Assembly (NCBI GenBank): GCA_000165345.1
Contig: CM000433.1
Span: forward strand, 256,001-320,000
Length of the DNA: 64,000 bases
Direction: 5' to 3'
Shown piece by piece: positions 13,264-49,333 of the stretch. Every line of letters starts with the position of its first letter. The first letter of the stretch is position 1. The notes beneath the pieces were generated by a model. It was not told the origin of the DNA. It was given only the letters and a program-made list of their open reading frames with translations, and made no database searches. The position numbers and the translations under genes were made by a program.

Positions 13264-15752
13264 ATGCAGAAAAAGGATAATACTAATTTGTTCAGCTACA
13301 AAAAAATTAGGAGGAAGACTTTTAAAAAAGACAACAGTGGCTGTAATTACAAGCCCACAAACTTTTTACCAAATAGCTGTATTAGAGGTGATAGGAAAAC
13401 AATTCTATGCGTTGCAGAAAAAAATTCTGTTGCAAAAGAAATTGCTAATATTCTCTGCCCAGAATTTCAATCACCAAATAAATTGAAGAGCAAAAGTAAG
13501 ACAAATGTTGCGTTATACTTCCCTTATGAATTTTGTGGGGATGAGTGTAACATGATAGTTACATCAGTAAGAGGCCATTTGAAGCAACTAGGATTTGCAT
13601 CAAAATATTCAGACTGGGGTTCGGTAAACCCTGTTGTGCTGTTGGATCTATCTACGCCAGTTATTAGTTCAATTTTACCTGACTGTATGGGAATTGCAGA
13701 TAACTTAACATATTTTTCAAAAATATCATCTTATTTGATTCTATGGTTAGATTGCGATAGGGAGGGCGAGAATATTGCATTCGAAGTACTAAGTATTTGT
13801 TTAAACTCGAACAAAAACCTGATTACTTTTAGGGCTCATTTTTCAGCGATTACTAAATTTGAGATTAACAATGCAATGAAAAAACTATCATTTCCCAATC
13901 GTGCATTAAGCGATGCTGTCGAGGCTAGAAAAGAAATAGACTTAAGAGTAGGGTCTTCCTTTACGAGGTTTTTAACTCTGAGGTATAGTAGGCTATTCCC
14001 GATTCCAGAACGCACACTTAGCTATGGAACATGCCAATTCCCTACTCTTGGATTCGTTGTAAGCAGATATAAAAAGATTATTAATTTTAGAGAGGAAGAT
14101 GAGTGGACGATCACATTGGAAGTTAAGATGAAGATTTATGAAGGGAATAACAAAGAAATGTCGAACGTAATTTTTGAATGGGAAAGAGGTAAACTTTTTG
14201 ATAACTTATTTACATTTATTATATATGAAACTTGCATAGAAAATTCAAATGCAAGAATTAAAGAAATAGTTAATAACAAGATCTTGAAAAGAAAACCCTT
14301 ACCACTTAATACAGTTGAAATGACAAAAATTGCATCTGATAAGTTAAAATTTTCTCCTATTAAGTGCATTAATATTGCAGAAAATCTTTATAGAAAAGGT
14401 TACATTTCATATCCAAGAACAGAAACAAATAGTTTTTCGGACAGCATTGATATCTCAAAATATATAAAAGAGCAAGAAAAAAGTAGCATATTCGGATCAT
14501 TTGCAAACGAGTTGTTGTATTTAAACAGTTTTTCAGTACCGAGAAAAGGCTGTAAAGATGATGGTTCTCACCCGCCAATCCATCCTGTAAAATGTTTGAA
14601 TAAGGAACAAGCTTCTTCAAATGAAGAATGGTTGTTATACGAGCTTATTACACGTCACTTTTTGTCCTCATGCTCAGAAGATGCTGTAATTATGGAAACA
14701 ATCGTTAAAGTTGATATTTCAGGCGAGACTTTCAAGACTAAAGGAACCGTAAGTTAATTAATTCAATCATCACACTAATTAATTTCTATTAGGTTATAAT
14801 AGAAGAGAATTGGCTAAAGATATACTATCCATTTGAAAGAATAAAAACAAAGATATTACCAGCATTTAATCTTGGTAATTTAGCCTTTCCATACAAACTA
14901 TTCCTACGTAAAAGCAAAACAATCCCTCCGACATTACTGAGCGAGGCAGAACTAATTGATTTAATGGATAAGAACGGGATCGGGACTGATGCTACGATGC
15001 ACGAGCACATTGAGAAGATACAAGTCAGACAATATGTTAAGAAAAATTCAAAATCATTACTTTCTCCAACGGCATTAGGAGTTGCTTTATATAATGGATT
15101 TGAACTAATTTCTAGAAAAATGGAATCAAAGATAGATAAAGCTAAACTTATTGGTGAAACGAAGTCGCTTTATTTAAATAATATACCGGCTTGCAACCTA
15201 ATGCATTTTAGAATTAGACAAATAATTGAAAGAAGTATCGAGAAAATAACTTCCGGTGAATATTCTAGAAGTTATGTTGTTGAGCAGATAGCTGCGTTCA
15301 TGAAAAATATATACGAAAAAATGCTCGAATTTATTAGCTATTTGGATTCAGCACTACATGCTTATTTCCCTAAATGGGATGCAAGCATCGTGATGACTAA
15401 TGGAAAGATGGTTAAACAAAATATATCTGAATGCGGGTTTTGCGGGTCTAGCATAAATGTATACGAAGTTGAAAAGAGCTTGAATGGGCTTCCGCCTATT
15501 ACTGAAGCAGAAGGCGATACTATCATTCGCATTTCTAAAGATGCAAAATTAGCAATTTGTAAAAATCAATCGAAAATAGAGTGTAATAGGCCTTTATTTA
15601 TTCCAGATTTTAAATCAATTAATATTACAAATGAATACTGTCAATTTTGTAGATTCAAAAAGATTAAAATTGAAATACAGAACTCAAAAAAAGTTAGCTT
15701 ATGCCTATATTGCTTCAGTAATCTAGAAAAGGGCATATATGCTAAATGCTGA
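13264..15752 (+). CDS. TOP3: DNA topoisomerase III (type IA), two exons: join(13264..14748,14793..15752); 44-nt intron GTAAGT...TTAG.
   Basis: TOPRIM motifs (TILCVAEKNSVAKEIA; LWLDCDREGENIAFEV), the active-site region GYISYPRTETN, and C-terminal zinc-ribbon cysteines. The two track ORFs join in frame through a 44-nt intron. The spliced protein reads ...KTKGT|VIIEENWLKIYYPFE...AELIDLMDKNGIGTDATMHEHI, which restores the conserved topo IA domain order. Confidence 0.85.
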
Positions 15753-19245: not shown

Positions 19246-22065
19246 TCACTCATTAGATTGAGAACTATTTTTATCATTGTTTAATGAGGGCGGTGAAGAA
19301 TAACCAAATTTGACGGAGTCGGAAGTATCTTCGTTAGGAACAAACTTAGAGAATAAAGGCGCAACTTCCGTACCATTTAAGGGGGATAAAGCGAATTTGC
19401 CTTGAGAAGTGCCATTTGTGAGTATTAAGCTTGAACTAATGTATCTTTCATTATTTAAATTTGTAGTTTGATTCATTGTGTTTGAGCTTCCAGGCGCTCT
19501 ATCAAGCTGATCGGATTTATCTTTTATATAATTAGGATTAGATTCAGTTGAATTTAATGAATTGATATTGGTTCCATTGTATTGTGATTGACTTGAGTTC
19601 GAGACATTATTTATAACGTTAGCTGGTGTAGTTGTAGTTGTAGTGTACTTTTTGAAAATGTGTTGATTTTGTAATAAGTCTGTTTGCTTTTCTGACCTTT
19701 TATCTGTTGCATTATTAGATTGATTGATTCTATTTTTTGCATCAGAGTTGTTATCGTAAGTTTTATTCGTTTCCTTAGTCGCTTCAGGAGAAGTAGTATT
19801 TAATAACTTTTTTTGGGCTGGAATAATTAAATTTGAGTCATCATTTAACTGGGTGTTAGTAGGCTGTAATCTATTATTATTTTGAGATAAAAGCATTAAA
19901 GTATTTGAAAGCGAGCTGTTAATGCTAGCTGTGGTGGCGGTTGTTGTTGTAGTGGTAGTGGTAGTAGTTGTGGTAGTAGTTGTGGTAGTAGTTGTGGTAG
20001 TAGTTGTGGTAGTGGTAGTAGTAGTAGTAGTTGTTGTTGTTGTAGACGTTGTATAATATGGCTTAAAGAATTCCTTTTTTGGTAGGAAAGAAATATTGTT
20101 TAGATCTATTTGGTTAAAAAGAGATGATTTACTAGCTTTTTGAGAACTGTTTGTATTCTCTCTGAGCCTCCTATTCACAGATGCAATTTTGCCAACATTG
20201 GAAGCGTTCAAAAATAGGTTTGCTTCAGTAGTAGTAGTGGTTGTTGTGGTAGTAGTAGTTGTGGTAGTAGTAGTTGTTGTGGTAGTAGTAGTAGTAGTAG
20301 TTGTTGTTGTTGTTGTCGTAGTTGTAGTTGTTGTGGTAGTAGTTGTTGTGGTAGTAGTAGTTGTTGTGGTAGTTGTAGTAGTTGTGGTAGTTGTAGTAGT
20401 TGTGGTAGTAGTAGTTGTTGTGTAATATGGCTTAAAGAATTCCTTTTTTGGTAGGAAAGGAATATTGTTTAGATCCATTGGATTTATAAATGTTGATTTT
20501 ACAGTTTCTTGTGGGCTATTAGGACTNNNTNNNTANNNTNNNNNTTNTNNGANGCANTAGNANNANNNNNNGATANNNNNANNNNTNNNNNNAGNATNNN
20601 CNNNNNGNNGNNNTNGNNNNNGNNNNNGTANTNNNTNGNTNNNTNNNTAGNGGTGAANNGAGNANTGGTANTNGTGGTAGTAGNTGTNNTTGNGGNACGG
20701 TTGTAGNANTTNTNGTGGTGAGNNGTNNNANNTNNANNAGTAGNNNNGGTAGTANNNNNNNTTGNANNGTNTNGNANTANTAANGTTNNGNTANNGAANT
20801 ANNANTAGNTNTNNTAGTNNTAGTAGTAGTAGTAGTTGTTGTTGTTGTTGTGGTANTAGTAGGTAGTTGNTGNNGTTGTGGNAGTAGTAGTTGTNGTGGT
20901 GGTAGNAGTTGTTGNTGTTGTGGTAGTTGTAGTAGTTGTTGTGGTAGNTGTAGTAGTTGTGGTAGTAGTTGTAGTAGTAGTTGTAGTTGTGTAATATGGC
21001 TTAAATGGGATTCAAAAATTTTTCTTTCATTTGGAAAAATGGATTGTTTAAATCTATNGGAAGAAAAAAGTTTGGTTTTGCAATTTCCTGCGATGAATTT
21101 GAATTGATTTGTGAAACTTCATTGCTTGCTGTGATACCTAAACTTGGCGAGTTCAAAGCTAGACTTTCTGCAGTGGTAGTAGTTGTGGTAGTTGTTGTTG
21201 TTGTGGTGGTAGTAGTTGTGGTAGTGGTAGTTGTTGTTGTTGTGGTAGTGGTAGTNGTNGTTGTTGTGGTAGTGGTAGTTGTAGTAGTTGTTGTTGTGGT
21301 AGTAGTAGTAGTTGTTGTNGTNGTNGTTGTTGTGGTAGTGTAGTGGNTAGTTGTTGTAGTGTGGTGGGTAGTTGTGNTGGTAGTAGTAGTTGTGGTAGTG
21401 GTAGTAGTAGTTGTGGTAGTGGTAGTAGTAGTTGTAGTTGTTGTTGTGGTGGTAGTAGTAGTAGTTGTTGTTGTTGTCGTGGTTGTGGTAGTTGTAGTTG
21501 TTGTTGTGGTGGTAGTAGTAGTTGTAGTAGTTGTAGTTGTGGTTGTGGTAGTTGTAGTTGTTGTGGTAGTTGTTGTGGTAGTTGTAGTTGTAGTTGTTGT
21601 TGTGGTTGTGGTAGTAGTAGTTGTTGTGGTTGTGGTGGTAGTTGTTGTTGTGGTAGTTGTTGTCACTGGTCTAAATGGTCTAAAGAATTGTTCTTTCATT
21701 TGGAAAAATGGATGGCTTAAATCCATTGGATTAAAGAACGACGAGGACTTCACAGTCGAATCGTTTCCCAGTAACACTTTAGAACTATCCAAATTAGTGC
21801 TATTTGTATACTCAGTAGATAAAGGCATTCCGGGCAAATCGATGCCACCTATGCCAGTTAATATACCTTCAGAAGCATTTTTACTGTTTGTTACGTAGGA
21901 TTCATCTATATTACTTGGTGTGATTTGATTACCTCCTAACTCACTATTCCATGCCTCTGATTTATTTTCAGAGTATGTGATGGTATTAACTTCACATAAA
22001 GCATACTTTGAAAATTGAAGCAGAAGAAAGAAAAATAAAGTCGAAAAAACCTGTAGAAAATTCAT
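19246..22065 (-). CDS. Mucin-like secreted glycoprotein with modular poly-Thr arrays. It is probably one long gene that the assembly breaks with N's and an apparent frameshift near 21001, leaving track ORFs 21001..22065 and 19246..20478.
   Basis: Signal peptide at the 22065 end (MNFLQVFSTLFFFLLLQFSKYALC). It contains at least four modules of Ser/Asn-rich linker, a conserved motif (NPMDL / DLNN-I-PF(L/F)-KKEFFKPYY, seen 4 times), then 40-170 consecutive Thr from (ACT/ACC/ACA)n. The frame stays open from 20478 upstream into the N region, so the M of MDLNN is internal (F I N P M D L N N). The stop at 21001 sits where KEFFKPYY reads KFLNPI*, a 1-nt frame slip relative to the other copies. Confidence 0.6.
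19930..21665 (-). repeat. (ACN)n trinucleotide coding minisatellite encoding poly-Thr. Blocks at about 19930-20052, 20225-20421, 20527-20990 (N-rich) and 21172-21665.
   Basis: The plus strand reads (GTA/GTG/GTT)n, which is why the track shows spurious poly-Val and Cys/Gly/Ser ORFs. There is 3-nt periodicity with higher-order GGTAGT/AGTTGT units. Ambiguous bases occur at 20527..21377. Confidence 0.85.
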
Positions 22066-33440: not shown

Positions 33441-36360
33441 TCATTCATTAAAATATTTTGTTTTCAATACTTCTGCGCAAGACCAGTTGAAGTCTAATTT
33501 TGTATCTTGGAATTGCTTGCACTTATTGGAAAGACTGATAGTACTTAAGTCATTTTCGAATGGTCCCAACTGATTAATTTTTTCAATGTAAAATAGGGAT
33601 CTCTTAAAATCCTTGTTAATGAAAAATATCAATGCTTTAGTATGAAATTTAGATTTTAAAAGCGAAATCGGATCGGAATCATTTACAGTATTCAATACAT
33701 GATAAATTACTGTAGGGTTGCTTTTCCCTTGCACAACAACAACATCCAATGGGCATATTACAAACCTTTTCTGCACTTCTTTATTTACGAAGACATTGTT
33801 ACTTATTATTATGTCTGCAGAATAACGCCTAGTTAAAGATTCGATTCTACTGGCCAAATTAACTCCATCACCCATAATTCCGTACTTCATTCTTTTACTG
33901 CATCCAATGTTCCCAATCAGGACGTGATCTGTATGAATTCCACACTTAATGTTAATTTCTGGAATGTAGTTATTTCCGAAAGATCTAGATTTTAATTTTA
34001 ATTGCTTTTTCATTTTTAAAGACGCAGCTACCGCAGCTGCTGAATGGTTTTTAACAGCCATAGGTGAATTCCAAATTACTAGGATTGCATCTCCAGCAAT
34101 TTCTAGTAGGTTACCATGAAATTCTTCGATTATTTTAACCATTTCATCAAAATAATTAGTTAATAAGTAAAACAGTAATAATGGGTCAATCCTTTCTGCA
34201 ATACCAGTAAAACCAACAATATCTGAAAATAGAATTGTTATTTCCTTATACTGAGGACTAAGTGTTGAAAAGTCAAACTTCCTTAAGAGTGACGCTGCGA
34301 CACCTTGCGGAAGATATTTAGAGAGCGAATCCACATATTTTTTCAGAGATTCTGCGCAATGATTGGATAAAAACTCTGATAAATAGTCATTCATTGATAA
34401 ATTAATCTGAGAATTATCTTCATTAGAAAAAGACAAATTCTTTTCAGCTAACTTCAAATTACCATAAATCAAATCATACTTGTTTATTATTCGATTGTAA
34501 CTTTTCAATGATGAAGAAAAATACATCTGATCTACTTTAAGATGAAATATTGAACTTAAAAAAATAATCAGAAAATAAAAGTATTTCTGAATTATAGATG
34601 CAGTACAGTTGGCTTGAGAATATTTGTTGCCATAACTATTAATGATCGTCTCTATAGTAGAAATGAAAGTTACTGCTGCGAAAATAAATAATGTAATGTT
34701 GTAAAACGATTGTTCAAAAATAATTTTTCTATTCAAAAGTAAGCAAGACCCATTAGTAATGTCAAATAAATTGGTGTGGCAATCAATTCTATTCAATAGC
34801 TTTTTTTTGCAGTCCAAAGAAACTAATAACATCTCAAAATCTTCATAAGTTAGTTTTTTCTTGTTTGAAATGTATTCCTGATAACTTGAGATGCCAGTTT
34901 TCCTGTAAAAGCATATAAAACCATTAAATTCCTTACTGAACAGCCTCGGCAACCTGCGATCATTAAACTTCAGAGAAATAAAGAAAGATTTAAGAATAGC
35001 GAGTATCTGTGACTTACAAAATAAACAAAGTTTAAGGTAAACTAGTTTAAAATGTGAATAAAATTGATTATAAATTAGCATGAAACGTTGATTATTATTT
35101 GAATTTTTTGTAAATTTTCGTTCCTTTAAAGATAAAGTGGGAATATTGTATTCTAACCCGAAGAATTTATTTTGAATCCAATCAAAATTTTGAAACAAAA
35201 TATGTATACAATGATTGGTTAACCAGATTGCTTTGATCAAAAATATCGATTCCTAACTTTGTACAAATACTTTCGAATTCGGAAGATGAAATCATTGAAC
35301 TTATATCATTGCTAATAGAATAAAAAATTTGCTTGAGCTGAGTCCTGATAATTTCCGTAACTTGGAATTTATTATACTTGTTAGTAAATTTGCACTGAAG
35401 AATGAAAATAATACGATAAATATATGAATAATATAAAAGTTGAGCATAAATATTAAAAAATTCTTTAATTAGGCCCTCACTGCCATAAAAGTATAGAGTT
35501 GTTAAAATCAAATGGATCATTTCTATAGCCATGCCCATTTTTGGTATAGATTTCCAATTAAAAATATAGAAAAATATATCGAAGCAAATATTAATTACAG
35601 ACAAAGCAATAATTATAATCTCTGAGAGATGATTAATGGATATATATTTGCTTCTCAATATATTTATGTTCATAATGCGTATAACTTGAATTGCTAACTC
35701 TATTAATGATTTGCTACAAATTTTATAATATTCATTCAAAAACTTTAACAGGATAATTGAAACTTTATTATTTTCATGATTTGAAAATAACTGGACACCT
35801 TTTTTTAAACCAAAAAAATTATTAATGTCGTGAATAATATACTTATCAATATTTTTAATCTCAATACCAGGTGATGAATGATCTTGCCTCAAAGTATTAA
35901 GATTTTTTATATGTTGAAAATTTAAATCAGAAAGTTGTAACCGATTAACATGATTAATTAGTAAGTCAAATAACGGTAAGATACAGTTTCTGTGCGTTTT
36001 TATATTAATTACTCGACGCAGACGCCTTTGTTCCTTTACCAAATGCTGATTTTCATTTATGTATATTAATTCCAAAAAATCAAAATCTTGATAGGTCGAT
36101 AAAGATTTAGTGCTATTCAATATATTTTTAAAAGAGCATAAAAAATTGATTTCCTTTCTAAACGAGAGTTTTTTCAAATTAGTATTACATTTTTTTAAGT
36201 AATTTTCTTTCCGATTGGGACTTTGTGTAAACGCAAAAAAGTCTAATTTCGTCCCGGTTCTAATTATAGTTTCAACATTATTGCCCAATAAATTGGTGAA
36301 AGTTGAGTTTAAATTATTGGAATAAAATTTAATTCTATAATTACTATGGTTAATCTGCAT
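33441..36360 (-). CDS. Membrane-anchored class III nucleotidyl (adenylyl/guanylyl) cyclase: N-terminal multi-pass TM region plus C-terminal cyclase catalytic domain. Tentative model complement(join(33441..35230,35271..36360)).
   Basis: Cyclase motifs: ITILFSDIVGFTG (metal Asp), AGDAILVIW (second Asp) and GDGVNLASRIESLT (Asn/Arg transition-state pair). Upstream ORF 35182..36360 encodes TM helices (IIIALSVINICFDIFFYIFNW; MGMAIEMIHLILTTLYFYG). The downstream ORF has no ATG and opens immediately after a TAG. A 40-nt candidate intron (GTATTT...AAAG, 35231..35270) joins ...SSSEFE|T|IWLTNHCIHILF in frame; the alternative is a frameshift. Confidence 0.6.
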
Positions 36361-37466: not shown

Positions 37467-38769
37467 ATGAATAAAGTTCTGGTAGTAGATAATGGCTCAT
37501 ACACCATTAAAATTGGATATTCAGGTGAAGAATTACCTAGGTAAGTTGAATTTCTTACCAAAAATATTTTAATTCTCTTAGGCATTGCTTCCCAAATTGT
37601 ATCGGAAAAGTTCGAAGAAAAGATAAAATTTATACATCTGATCAAATTTACAGCTTGAATGAATATTTTTCTTATTGTCCATTTTCTGAAGGCTTACTAA
37701 TTGATGTTTCAATGGAAAATGATATTTGGGAATATATTTTTAATAAAATGAATATTTCTCCAGGGGATATTGGTTTATTAGTCACTGAACCATTTCTAAA
37801 CCCATCCTCACTTCAGCATTCTCTTTTCGAAATAATCTTTGAGCAATTTGGTTTTAATAAGGCAATAGTTACAAATCCTCCTGCAATATCACAGTTTGCA
37901 TTCAATCCACAGCTAATTCCCAATACTGAGCAGCAAGTAATTAATCCTTGCTATTTGATTTTAGACTGTGGCTATCAGTGTTGTTTTAGTGTCCCATTTT
38001 TTCAAGGCTCACCAATTTATAAAGCTTGTAGAAGATTGGATATTGGCGGATATCACTTGGATCTTGCATTAAAAAATTTTCTTTCACTCAGACAAGTTGA
38101 TTTATCTAGAAGCTCTTTAATTGTCTCAAAAATTAAAGAAAGTTGCTGCTATATTTCTAAAAATTTTGATCTTGATATTAGCAGGTCGCCAGGAAATAGT
38201 CCTGATAATTTGGTGGAGCAGATATATCAACTCCCTGAATTAAAACCAAACAGTAAGAATTCAAACTTCTACTCTCAGGAGTGTATATCTCCAGATAATA
38301 TTGAACTTGAGAATTTCAATTTAAAAATGGAATCCGAATCTAGCGTGAATTGCGACCCTAGCAGAATCATTAAACTTTATTCTGAAAGGATTACTGTTCC
38401 GGAACTTTTATTTAGTCCTTCAAACGGAGGTTATAACTTTACAGGAATTGCCGACATGGTATCAGAGTCAATCTTATCATCCCCAAAGCATCTCCAAGAG
38501 CTTCTAGCGAATAATATATTGTTAATAGGAGGCTCTACTAAATTCAGAAATTTCGAAGCGAGATTAAATAAGGAGCTTTCCTCTCTACTACCTTCGGTAA
38601 GTTTAAAACTTAAACACTATCATTCAACTAACTTAAGAAGTCGTGGAAAATAAAAACAAGAAAATGCAATCAAAGACCTGACTTCACAACATGGGCAGGT
38701 GGCTCAATTTGGGGAGAAACAAACTTTGATACATATGCACTTTCAAAAAGTAAATACAATGAAATCTGA
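37467..38769 (+). CDS. Actin-related protein (Arp), three exons: join(37467..37540,37582..38596,38638..38769); two 41-nt introns, both GTAAGT...(T/A)AG.
   Basis: Exon 1 (MNKVLVVDNGSYTIKIGYSGEELPR) matches the actin N-terminus ([22 protein letters not shown]). Exon 2 has LLVTEPFLNPSSLQHSLFEIIFEQFGFNKAIV, ITVPELLFSPS and LLIGGSTKFRNFEARLNKEL. Exon 3, joined in frame by a 41-nt intron, gives the actin-fold C-terminus ...PDFTTWAGGSIWGETNFDTYALSKSKYNEI*. The subfamily (Arp4/6 or actin-like) is not resolved. Confidence 0.75.
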
Positions 38770-47134: not shown

Positions 47135-47203
47135 TGTTTCGAAAGTTATCACATTTTTCAAATTAATTTAATATTCCGCGCTAAATAATATTTAATATTA
47201 ATC

Positions 47204-48028
47204 ATGAGAGCATATTCGATTATTATTTGTAACGAAAATGATGAAAGCAGTGTTAAAATACTGTCATCCTGTTATTGTCTTTCTAGGTACGGTGAAATAC
47301 CCCCATTTTAAACATTAAATTTGCAAGATTAGATTTTCCTATTTTGAACGAAGTTATATTAAAGAAATTTTTATTTTTATTGTAAAATCCATTACTCCAA
47401 AGGTAAGTAAATTATTATCTTTATATCCAACATATTTTCCATAGCTAAATTCAGGAGTGCAGGAAATAATTACCCATGATGAGTATACAATATTTTCATA
47501 TAAATGGAGTGATGGACTTTCAATATCTATGATATGTGACGATGACTTCCCTGCAAGGTAAGTATGAATTAAAAGACTTAAGTAAAACTATATTCTTTAG
47601 GATTGCATTTTCATCTATATTTGAAGCTTATATGAACATTAAAGATAAAAATCAACATGAATTGTCTTTATTAGACGATAAATTAATTTACAGAACAATT
47701 TTTACAATACTGAATAAATATAAAGTAAGTTGAATAAGTAGTAATTGATACTTCAAACTATTTGAATAGGAACCTCTAATTTCAGACGCAATTACTGAAT
47801 CTCAAATAAAAATTGACAAGGCTCGAGTAAGTTTTTTTTTTCTTAATTTATTCCCTTTCCATTTTATTTTTTCTACAGGAAGCTATTAATGTTTCACTTA
47901 AATCTTTTTTAGATAGAGGAGAAAATTTGGATGAGCTTATACAAAAAAGCAACGATTTGTCTGACTCATCGAAGAAATTATTCAAAATGTCTAAAAAAAC
48001 AAAGAGGCCATGTTGTAGTCTTCAATAA
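47204..48028 (+). CDS. YKT6: R-SNARE Ykt6 (longin domain, SNARE motif, C-terminal CCxxX lipidation box), six exons: join(47204..47286,47333..47402,47445..47557,47601..47724,47770..47826,47879..48028).
   Basis: The spliced 198-aa product is MRAYSIIICNENDESSVKILSSCYCLS R FSYFERSYIKEIFIFIVKSITPK LNSGVQEIITHDEYTIFSYKWSDGLSISMICDDDFPA R IAFSSIFEAYMNIKDK...NKYK EPLISDAITESQIKIDKAR EAINVSLKSFLDRGENLDELIQKSNDLSDSSKKLFKMSKKTKRPCCSLQ*. It parallels Ykt6 throughout (MKLYSLSVLYKG..., SFSFFQRSSVQEFMTF, DEYPSRVAF, SNARE motif ERGEKLDDLV..S..L) and ends in the CCAAX-type box. Introns are 46, 42, 43, 45 and 52 nt, with GTACGG/GTAAGT donors and (T/C)AG acceptors. A pure ORF scan cannot see this gene. Confidence 0.8.
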
Positions 48029-48031
48029 TAT

Positions 48032-48075
48032 TGCATGCTGCATGTAACTTAATTATTATTGCATGTGCATGCATT
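48032..48075. promoter_or_regulatory. Cluster of GCATG / TGCATGCA motifs (4 cores in 44 nt) in the 105-nt spacer between YKT6 and the downstream membrane-protein gene.
   Basis: tgcatgctgcatg at 48032..48044 and tgcatgtgcatgcat at 48060..48074, with a perfect TGCATGCA at 48066..48073. TGCATGCA is a known ApiAP2-type cis element in apicomplexans. Confidence 0.45.
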
Positions 48076-48133
48076 CCTTTTTATTTTCGTTTTCAAATAA
48101 ATTGATAGGTATTATTTTGTGCAGATAGCAAAA

Positions 48134-49333
48134 ATGTTTTTTAAAGAGAAATCTGTAAAAGAAGTCCCAACTGCTCCAGCTAGCCCTTCGATATTACCGT
48201 TGAGAGATGCCAATCTCCCTGAAACCGTAATAAAGGAAGTCAGCAAAATATTATATTTTGGTTTTGGAGGTTTTTTAACCATTTCAATAATTTCACTTGC
48301 AGTGCTTCAGGCTAATACAAATGCAGTTTGTGATCGGGTAAGTTCTAATAAAAAGTTTAATCGACAATTTTAAATCGTGTAGAATCTCGATGAAACTAAT
48401 GGGTTATCTGCAATATTTTCACTTTCAATGTCTCTGGTCTGTTCTCTCATGCTTTTATTACCGGATCAAAGAGACGCGTTGATCAAGGCATTTAAATATA
48501 ATGAATTTCCTTCCATGAAAAAAATATCAATTTGCAGCTGGGCTAGTATTATTTCGTTTATTTTGGTTCCTGCAGTTGTGATAATGCATGATAGTAAGTA
48601 AAAAGCTATAATTAAAGAATTATAAAAACTTTTATAGTTGGTGGATTCATAAAAATTTCTGAAAGTAACTCTTGTAAATATACTGCACCGGGACTATATA
48701 TTGGTACGTTAACTTAATAATGGTTATATATCTATATTAATAATTTCAGGAACTTCAATTGTGCTGAGCTTTCAATTGCTAATCATACTCTTATTAACTA
48801 TGGCACTTTTTTCCTCTAATTTAATGGACTTAATTAGTTCGCTTCCATCCATAAATTTAGAAAAAATTAATATATTCATTGATCATTTGGCAGGATTTTT
48901 CAGCTATACAAAATCCATATTTAACTGGATGATAAATCAATCAATTGATTTTATAAGAAAGCATTGTTTCTCAAACTGTGCCGAACTATATTCAAAATTC
49001 GTGACAAATTTTAAAAATCTGGGATGTTTGCTTTCTTCAATTACCAGAAAATTTACTGAAGCATCCAAAAATGTTGGCAGCAAGCTTCAAACTTTACTTG
49101 AAAATATTAGTAGGCTAAGCAAAGATACAATTGAAAAAACTAATCTTTTCGGTAAAGAATTGTGTGTCTTTGGAAAAGAAATATTCATAAAAGTCAAATC
49201 AGCCATATTGGCTATAAAAGAAGGATCGGCAGGTAAGTTTTTAGAAGTATATTTGGGACAATTTACCTTTTTTAGGTTTCAACTTAGAGACTATCCCGCT
49301 ATTACCAAAGTAGTATGCAAACTAGTCTGTTAA
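48134..49333 (+). CDS. Multi-exon gene for a putative multi-pass membrane protein of unknown family: join(48134..48337,48383..48593,48638..48703,48750..49232[,49276..49313?]).
   Basis: Exons a-d join in frame through introns of 45, 44 and 46 nt (GTAAGT/GTACGT...AG). Predicted TM helices are FGFGGFLTISIISLAVL, LSAIFSLSMSLVCSLMLLL, SIISFILVPAVVIM and LSFQLLIILLLTMALF. A possible terminal 43-nt intron at 49233..49275 is uncertain. The start is taken as the ATG at 48134. Confidence 0.45.

What the first reader, a model, noticed from the sequence alone, without database searches (positions are those of the whole stretch)
47204..48028. Six-exon YKT6 gene that is invisible to ORF scanning; its introns of 42-52 nt fit a tightly constrained splicing regime across the window
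Hand assembly of six small exons yields a complete Ykt6 R-SNARE (longin domain, SNARE motif, CCSLQ lipidation box). Every intron I could define in this window falls in 40-52 nt: TOP3 44; Arp 41 and 41; YKT6 46, 42, 43, 45 and 52; the membrane-protein gene 45, 44, 46 and possibly 43; the small tail-anchored gene 46; the cyclase candidate 40. Donors are GTAAGT, GTACGG, GTACGT or GTATTT, and acceptors are preceded by a T/A-rich tract ending (T/C/A)AG. Such a narrow size band implies intron definition by length. It also gives a practical rule for re-annotating the rest of this genome, where ORF-based calling will miss short-exon genes like this one.
Basis: seen in the sequence. Interest (0 to 1): 0.55.

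Follow-up and report, generated by a model that had tools for sequence, protein, structure and literature searches.

The report
Known six-exon Ykt6 gene, Cryptosporidium parvum

Summary
The window is Cryptosporidium parvum chromosome 5, apparently the 2004 Iowa II assembly. It gives a 198-aa protein 100% identical to the annotated protein QOY41570.1. That protein aligns end to end with human/rat/yeast Ykt6, has a longin domain, an R-SNARE motif with the zero-layer Arg, and a C-terminal CCSLQ box. Its predicted fold matches Ykt6 structures best. The five intron positions and phases are conserved in C. ubiquitum and C. ryanae.

The window-wide intron list is mostly right but not entirely:
- Supported introns span 41-55 nt (n=14, mean 45.4).
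- The "cyclase 40-nt intron" is an artefact of a one-base frameshift in this assembly.
- The second Arp intron is 44 nt, not 41.
- The "small tail-anchored gene" is probably the 5' end of an 864-aa gene that has a further 55-nt intron.

Published genome-wide mean intron lengths are 84-104 nt, so 40-52 nt is a common size, not a limit. The finding is correct, ordinary and already known.

The parts
47204..47286 (+). YKT6 exon 1 (83 nt, starts at the ATG; longin domain N-terminus, MRAYSII...)
   Evidence: The N-terminus aligns to residue 1 of human YKT6.
47287..47332 (+). YKT6 intron 1, 46 nt, GTACGG...TTAG, follows phase 2
   Evidence: It has an in-frame stop if retained. The same position holds a 47-nt intron in C. 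ubiquitum and a 49-nt intron in C. ryanae.
47333..47402 (+). YKT6 exon 2 (70 nt; FSYFERSYIKEIFIFIVKSITPK)
   Evidence: Aligns to human FSFFQRSSVQEFMTFTSQLIVER. The rival 184-aa model replaces this segment with non-homologous residues.
47403..47444 (+). YKT6 intron 2, 42 nt, GTAAGT...ATAG
47445..47557 (+). YKT6 exon 3 (113 nt)
47558..47600 (+). YKT6 intron 3, 43 nt, GTAAGT...TTAG
47601..47724 (+). YKT6 exon 4 (124 nt; end of the longin domain and linker)
47725..47769 (+). YKT6 intron 4, 45 nt, GTAAGT...ATAG
47770..47826 (+). YKT6 exon 5 (57 nt; start of the SNARE motif)
47827..47878 (+). YKT6 intron 5, 52 nt, GTAAGT...ACAG, T-rich
47879..48028 (+). YKT6 exon 6 (150 nt including TAA; SNARE motif with zero-layer R162 in LDRGENLD, and the CCSLQ lipidation box)
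14749..14792 (+). TOP3 intron, 44 nt
   Evidence: The only solution for the 814-aa product. That exact protein is public as EAZ51284.1.
37541..37581 (+). Actin-related protein intron 1, 41 nt
   Evidence: 405-aa QOY41566.1
38597..38640 (+).
48338..49275 (+). Span holding the four introns of the downstream membrane-protein gene (CDS 48134-49313, 333 aa): 48338-48382 (45 nt), 48594-48637 (44), 48704-48749 (46), 49233-49275 (43)
   Evidence: WRK32282.1/KAL5368566.1. The first three have identical lengths in C. ubiquitum.
57516..57709 (-). Span holding the two introns of the 864-aa 'HCD family secreted protein' gene (55285-57980): 57664-57709 (46 nt, GTAAGG) and 57516-57570 (55 nt, GTAAGT...GGAG)
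   Evidence: QOY41576.1
35197..35200 (-). One-base insertion in this assembly (run of four versus three) that splits the 972-aa cyclase ORF. This is the cause of the false 40-nt intron at 35231-35270.

Best explanation
Positions 47204-48028 (+) hold the Cryptosporidium parvum orthologue of Ykt6. Ykt6 is a lipid-anchored longin R-SNARE of 198 aa, here encoded by six exons separated by five canonical GT-AG introns of 42-52 nt.

Inferred from the Ykt6 family, not tested here: the C-terminal CCSLQ box is prenylated on the CaaX cysteine and carries a second lipid on the neighbouring cysteine. The longin domain folds back on the SNARE motif in the soluble form. The membrane-bound form supplies the R-SNARE helix for fusion in Golgi and endosomal traffic.

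The introns are ordinary short, AT-rich Cryptosporidium introns with a strong U1-complementary donor (GTAAGT) and no clear branch-point consensus. They sit at about 45 nt, which appears to be the common (near-minimal) size for this genus. Recognition across the intron is the likely mechanism, but this is inferred. The 41-55 nt band seen in this window is that common size, not a hard limit.

The gene, this exact model and the short-intron character of the genome are already in public annotation and literature.
For: Organism and locus:
- The window is 99.99% identical to C. parvum IOWA-ATCC CP044418.1. The gene corresponds to roughly 325,022-325,846 there.

Gene model:
- A unique splice solution reproduces P0001.
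- P0001 is QOY41570.1/WRK32281.1, named 'Synaptobrevin/SNARE protein'.
- The paper describing that annotation states its introns are 100% supported by RNA-seq (PMC8744675).

Protein identity:
- phmmer against PDB gives YKT6 6j74_C at E=1.9e-23, residues 1-197 to 1-197, with no gaps at the exon junctions. VAMP7 scores 6.9e-6 and Sec22b 6e-4.
- Pfam Synaptobrevin scores 31.6 bits (cut-off 26.4) and Longin 26.7 bits (cut-off 26.2).
- The AlphaFold model has pLDDT 78-91 over the longin domain. The top five Foldseek PDB hits are all Ykt6.
- R162, C194, C195 and Q198 are invariant in six Cryptosporidium orthologues.

Comparative support for the introns:
- Intron positions and phases are identical in C. 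ubiquitum (47/42/44/48/44 nt) and C. ryanae (49/43/48/44/49 nt).
- Exon identity is 82% and 68% for those two species. Intron-core identity is 67% and 53%, against a shuffled background of 51%.

Intron regime:
- 14 supported introns in the window span 41-55 nt, and 11 of 14 have a GTAAGT donor.
- One further 45-nt intron lies just outside the window.
- The literature reports 84% GTAAGT donors and no clear branch point in C. parvum (PMC2483917).
Against: - No transcript data could be examined here. RNA-seq support is taken from the paper's general statement, not checked for this gene.
- The Pfam Longin score clears its cut-off only narrowly.
- Lipidation and SNARE function are untested in Cryptosporidium.
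- Several public annotations carry different models of this gene: 184, 190, 120, 271, 509 and 525 aa.
- Published mean intron lengths of 84-104 nt show many annotated introns are longer than any in this window. The 45-nt common size is inferred from a small local sample.
Confidence: 0.93

Rival explanations
1. The correct transcript is the alternative 184-aa model found in some C. parvum and C. hominis annotations (KAL5368565.1, WKS77789.1). It uses a 78-nt intron 1 (47287-47364) and a 52-nt intron 2 (47403-47454).
For: This model exists in public annotations. It is a valid GT-AG solution on the window.
Against: It replaces the segment FSYFERSYIKEIFIFIVKSITPKLNS with NFYFYCKIHYSK. The replaced segment aligns to human Ykt6 and is conserved in five other Cryptosporidium species. 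The model uses a weak AAAG acceptor. The 198-aa model aligns end to end with Ykt6 and belongs to the annotation described as RNA-seq supported.
Confidence: 0.03
2. YKT6 and the downstream membrane-protein gene form one longer gene, as in the 525-aa C. hominis and 509-aa C. meleagridis 'synaptobrevin YKT6' models.
For: Such fused models are public. The two genes lie only 105 nt apart on the same strand.
Against: The TAA stop directly follows CCSLQ. A CaaX box has to be C-terminal to work (established family knowledge). The stop and the box are conserved in six species. The annotation paper warns that reads overlapping neighbouring genes create false fusions in this compact genome.
Confidence: 0.02
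3. The narrow 40-52 nt band reflects a hard, length-measuring constraint on all Cryptosporidium introns. Longer annotated introns would then be annotation errors.
For: - All 14 supported introns in the window, plus one neighbour, are 41-55 nt.
- No intron-containing gene in the window has span-minus-CDS length left unexplained.
- 13 orthologous introns in two other species are 42-49 nt, although intron sequence has decayed to background.
- The mis-modelled 184-aa variant creates a false 78-nt intron. This shows how annotation errors can inflate intron length statistics.
Against: - One supported intron is 55 nt.
- Published statistics give median 61 and means of 82-104 nt, including RNA-seq-guided annotations.
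- The sample is small, comes from one 64-kb region, and 9 of the 14 introns come from two adjacent genes.
- No mechanism was tested.
Confidence: 0.12
4. The locus is a pseudogene or a chance assembly of short ORFs.
For: Many GT..AG combinations keep a frame open in this AT-rich DNA.
Against: There is full-length homology to Ykt6 at E=1.9e-23. Exons are conserved across species more than introns. The functional residues are invariant.
Confidence: 0.01

Closest known systems
C. parvum IOWA-ATCC protein QOY41570.1 (CPATCC_002139; also WRK32281.1), 'Synaptobrevin / SNARE protein'
   Same: 100% identical over 198 aa. Same 825-nt gene span and same five introns.
   Different: Nothing differs. The window is simply an older assembly of the same locus, and I found no 2004 GenBank protein for this gene.
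Mammalian and yeast Ykt6 (PDB 3KYQ, 6J74/6J7F, 1H8M, 3BW6)
   Same: Same length (198 aa). Longin domain plus R-SNARE motif plus CCaaX box and no transmembrane helix. End-to-end alignment and best fold match.
   Different: About 24-25% identity over the structurally aligned region. The box is CCSLQ rather than CCAIM/CCIIM. Function and lipidation are untested in Cryptosporidium.
Plasmodium falciparum Ykt6.1 / Ykt6.2 (prenylated SNAREs; PMC5141570)
   Same: Apicomplexan Ykt6 proteins with CCSIM / CCSLY boxes. PfYkt6.1 is a confirmed prenyltransferase substrate.
   Different: Apicomplexans are reported to have two Ykt6 paralogues, A and B (bioRxiv 10.1101/2022.12.12.520010). I did not determine which one this is. 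I found only one Ykt6 family within Cryptosporidium.
Short, near-minimal spliceosomal introns of compact eukaryotic genomes (e.g. fission yeast, Pneumocystis, Paramecium; from my own knowledge), and published C. parvum intron features (PMC2483917)
   Same: AT-rich introns of about 45 nt, a strong GTAAGT donor (79% here, 84% published) and no clear branch-point motif.
   Different: Published C. parvum length statistics are broader (median 61, mean 82-99 nt) than the 41-55 nt seen in this window.

Membership tests
Ykt6 (lipid-anchored longin R-SNARE) | N-terminal longin domain | tested here: met
   Pfam PF13774 scores 26.7 bits against a cut-off of 26.2, which is marginal. phmmer to the yeast Ykt6 longin domain (3bw6, 1h8m) gives E about 1e-9 over residues 1-137. 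The AlphaFold model has pLDDT 78-91 over residues 1-100, and its top Foldseek hit is 3bw6 with target-normalised TM-score 0.77.
Ykt6 (lipid-anchored longin R-SNARE) | R-SNARE motif with a zero-layer arginine | tested here: met
   Pfam PF00957 scores 31.6 bits against a cut-off of 26.4 over residues 136-194. R162 in LDRGENLD aligns to the Arg of human LERGEKLD. R162 is invariant in six orthologues.
Ykt6 (lipid-anchored longin R-SNARE) | C-terminal CCaaX lipidation box in place of a transmembrane anchor | tested here: met
   The protein ends ...KRPCCSLQ followed by the stop codon. C194, C195 and Q198 are invariant. It aligns to the CCAI(M) box of human YKT6. Only the sequence motif was tested.
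Ykt6 (lipid-anchored longin R-SNARE) | Closer to Ykt6 than to the other longin SNAREs (Sec22, VAMP7) | tested here: met
   E=1.9e-23 for YKT6, against 6.9e-6 for VAMP7 and 6e-4 for Sec22b. The top five Foldseek hits are all Ykt6.
Ykt6 (lipid-anchored longin R-SNARE) | Actual prenylation/acylation and participation in SNARE complexes | not testable with these tools
   Needs biochemistry. The nearest precedent is Plasmodium.
Canonical GT-AG spliceosomal introns | GT...AG boundaries, and removal restores a homologous ORF | tested here: met
   Five of five introns are GT-AG. Four donors are GTAAGT and one is GTACGG. A unique solution gives the public protein. There are no alignment gaps at the junctions.
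Canonical GT-AG spliceosomal introns | Intron positions conserved in orthologues, with sequence diverging faster than in exons | tested here: met
   Positions and phases are the same in C. ubiquitum and C. ryanae. Exon identity is 82% and 68%, against intron-core identity of 67% and 53%.
Canonical GT-AG spliceosomal introns | Split-read or cDNA evidence for the junctions | not testable with these tools
   Indirect evidence only. The identical model belongs to the IOWA-ATCC annotation, whose introns are stated to be 100% RNA-seq supported.
Canonical GT-AG spliceosomal introns | Recognisable branch-point motif | tested here: inconclusive
   No YTRAY motif lies at a consistent distance from the 3' end in the 14 introns. 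This agrees with the published 'not clear' for C. parvum.
Genome-wide length-restricted (minimal) intron regime | All genuine introns fall in one narrow size band | tested here: inconclusive
   Met locally: 14 of 14 window introns are 41-55 nt and 13 orthologous introns are 42-49 nt. Published genome-wide figures disagree: median 61 and means of 82-104 nt. I could not obtain a genome-wide histogram.

The most novel reading that the evidence does not exclude
Cryptosporidium spliceosomes may accept only introns of about 41-55 nt. That window would be held across the genus even after intron sequence has randomised, so most annotated longer introns would be annotation errors. In that case intron length itself would be a usable recognition signal.
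Probability: 0.1. Interest if true: 0.4.

Novelty: already known. Interest (0 to 1): 0.15.

Why it matters
Very little is new.
- The gene and its exact exon structure are already public.
- The short-intron, strong-donor character of Cryptosporidium genes has been published.
- RNA-seq reannotations have already recovered missed introns and genes.

There is some practical value for annotation quality control:
- At least six public Cryptosporidium annotations still carry truncated, mis-spliced or fused models of this Ykt6 gene.
- The older assembly represented by this window contains single-base frameshifts that can be mistaken for introns.
- A histogram of read-supported introns would show whether about 45 nt is a hard window or just the common size.

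Tried and rejected
- **Brute-force intron enumeration.** Listing GT..AG sets that keep the ORF open gave 440 or more models for YKT6 and many for other genes. ORF preservation alone therefore does not discriminate, so I used exact matches to public proteins and homology instead.
- **The 326-aa membrane-gene model.** I could not reproduce the IOWA-ATCC model ending at 49289. It turned out to be flagged 'partial'. The 333-aa model fits.
- **The 'small tail-anchored gene'.** Searches of the intergenic gaps for a two-exon gene with a 46-nt intron found nothing convincing. The best candidate is the 5' part of the 864-aa gene. The stand-alone 127-aa product is not in the protein collection and has no Pfam hit.
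- **The cyclase.** No intron model reproduces the annotated 972 aa. A one-base deletion does.
- **Branch-point search.** Looking for YTRAY motifs showed no consistent position.
- **Homologues outside Cryptosporidium.** A profile search returned only one nematode protein. I could therefore not compare intron positions with Toxoplasma or Plasmodium, nor assign the Ykt6A/B paralogue.
- **Literature.** Searches for a C. parvum intron-length distribution or a gene ID for this Ykt6 found nothing specific.
- **RNA scans.** Rfam and tRNA scans of the window found nothing.

Full report
**Source of the window.** The window is AT-rich (about 25-35% G+C). It is 99.99% identical over 20.8 kb to Cryptosporidium parvum IOWA-ATCC chromosome record CP044418.1. 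Several features point to the original 2004 Iowa II assembly of chromosome 5:
- scattered N's in a repeat region;
- three single-base indels relative to long-read assemblies;
- a cyclase split exactly as in the Iowa II proteins EAK88118.1 (392 aa) and EAK88117.1.

**The observation.**
- All introns are GT-AG. Four donors are GTAAGT and one is GTACGG. The introns are 67-79% A+T.
- Four of the five have an in-frame stop within the intron if retained; reading through intron 5 meets a stop just inside exon 6.
- No + strand ORF in the gene exceeds 65 aa, so 'invisible to ORF scanning' is fair.
- Frame preservation alone is not evidence, because at least 440 alternative GT..AG combinations also keep a frame open.

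**What selects the model.**
- The 198-aa product is 100% identical to a public C. parvum protein, P0001 = QOY41570.1/WRK32281.1. The gene there has the same 825-nt span.
- The paper describing that annotation states that its introns are 100% supported by RNA-seq (PMC8744675). I could not inspect reads myself.
- The rival 184-aa model present in other C. parvum and C. hominis annotations uses a 78-nt and a 52-nt intron. It destroys a segment that aligns to human Ykt6 and is conserved in other Cryptosporidium species.
- Fused models of 509-525 aa and truncated models of 120-190 aa also exist. This gene is evidently hard to annotate.
- I found no protein for it from the 2004 Iowa II GenBank annotation, although the neighbouring genes have them.

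**Identity of the protein.**
- phmmer against PDB sequences aligns residues 1-197 to residues 1-197 of YKT6 (6j74_C, E=1.9e-23), with no gaps at the exon junctions. VAMP7 and Sec22b score far worse.
- Pfam Synaptobrevin and Longin both pass their cut-offs, Longin only narrowly.
- An AlphaFold model (mean pLDDT 73, with 78-91 over the longin domain) has Ykt6 structures as its five best PDB matches.
- The zero-layer Arg (R162) and the CCSLQ box (C194, C195, Q198) are invariant in six Cryptosporidium orthologues.
- All sequence-level defining features of Ykt6 are met. Lipidation and fusion activity are inferred from the family. The nearest apicomplexan precedent is P. falciparum Ykt6.1/6.2.

**Comparative support for the introns.**
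- In C. ubiquitum the five introns lie at the same positions and phases, with lengths 47/42/44/48/44 nt. In C. ryanae the lengths are 49/43/48/44/49 nt.
- Exon identity to C. parvum is 82% and 68% respectively. Intron-core identity is 67% and 53%, and the latter is indistinguishable from shuffled sequence at 51%.
- Intron length has therefore stayed within about 42-52 nt while intron sequence randomised.

**The window-wide intron list.** I compared gene spans with product lengths in the IOWA-ATCC annotation, enumerated introns and looked up exact proteins.

| Gene | Reader | Result |
|---|---|---|
| TOP3 | 44 | 44 nt, confirmed |
| Arp | 41, 41 | 41 and 44 nt; the second has a tandem AAG\|AAG acceptor |
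| YKT6 | 46, 42, 43, 45, 52 | confirmed |
| Membrane-protein gene | 45, 44, 46, possibly 43 | all four confirmed; public 333-aa model |
| 864-aa 'HCD family' gene | 46 ('small tail-anchored gene') | 46 and 55 nt |
| Cyclase | 40 | not an intron |

This identification is my guess.
- All other genes in the window have spans equal to their coding length.
- The cyclase 'intron' has a GTATTT donor and a CAAAG acceptor. The window carries one extra base near 35197, and without it the gene is an uninterrupted 972-aa ORF identical to proteins from four C. parvum assemblies. C. hominis and C. tyzzeri have proteins of the same length.
- The 14 supported introns span 41-55 nt (mean 45.4, SD 3.6), and 11 of 14 start with GTAAGT. 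One more intron just outside the window is 45 nt.

**How general is the rule?**
- Published figures for C. parvum are 213 introns with median 61 and mean 82 nt, 84% GTAAGT donors and no clear branch point (PMC2483917).
- Isaza et al. report a mean of 84 nt for 237 introns in the old annotation and 99 nt for 688 introns after RNA-seq reannotation. Intron-containing genes have 2-10 exons, mean 2.6 (PMC4637869).
- A gastric Cryptosporidium species averages 104 nt.
- So about 45 nt looks like a common size with a tail, not a bound. Mis-models such as the 78-nt intron above may inflate those means.
- As a predictor, the pattern GTAAGT followed by a [T/C/A]AG trinucleotide ending 40-55 nt from the donor G (the span counts both signals) marks 18 sites in the window. 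Eleven are real introns and none of the others is intergenic. About 13 sites are expected at random.
- The rule is therefore useful, but it revealed no further hidden genes here.

**Verdict.** The gene model, the organism's short strong-donor introns and the need for RNA-seq-based reannotation are all already published. Of the 15 listed introns, one is a sequencing artefact and one has the wrong length. One listed gene is mis-identified, and one 55-nt intron was missed. Novelty: already known. Interest is low.

Noticed in passing
window ~35197, ~41069, ~52007: Three single-base indels relative to long-read C. parvum assemblies. The first splits the 972-aa adenylyl/guanylyl cyclase into two ORFs (392 and 599 aa in this window; Iowa II annotates them as 392 and 546 aa). 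The second changes the C-terminus of the 2022-aa SACS-domain gene. The third truncates a 337-aa gene to a 232-aa ORF. They are probably assembly errors of the older reference.
   Followed up: partly
window 20527-21377 (gene ~19897-22065, - strand): There are 159 scattered N's in a strongly GC-skewed repeat-rich gene. Its annotated size differs between assemblies: 722 aa in IOWA-ATCC and 1237 aa in GCA_048859185.1. It is a collapsed or variable repeat region.
   Followed up: no
window 55285-57980 (-): The 864-aa 'HCD family secreted protein' gene is annotated in three ways: one gene with 46- and 55-nt introns, two genes of 128 and 735 aa, or 843-aa variants. A 43-nt alternative acceptor for the second intron is also in frame and would add four residues.
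   Followed up: partly
window 48134-49313 (+): The membrane-protein gene downstream of YKT6 (locus name 5g1370) has introns of 45/44/46 nt, exactly the same lengths as in C. ubiquitum. A published table lists cgd5_1370 with Ka/Ks of about 1.2 between C. parvum and C. hominis, though probably on the old partial 177-aa model.
   Followed up: no
whole window, both strands: Outside real introns, GTAAGT followed by a suitable acceptor 40-55 nt away occurs 7 times, against about 13 expected at random. This hints that cryptic strong donors are avoided in non-intron sequence. The sample is small.
   Followed up: no
window 47135-47203 and 48029-48133: The spacers around YKT6 are extremely short. There are 69 nt to the divergently transcribed SACS-domain gene and 105 nt to the next gene on the same strand. 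This probably explains the fused YKT6-plus-membrane-protein models in other annotations.
   Followed up: partly
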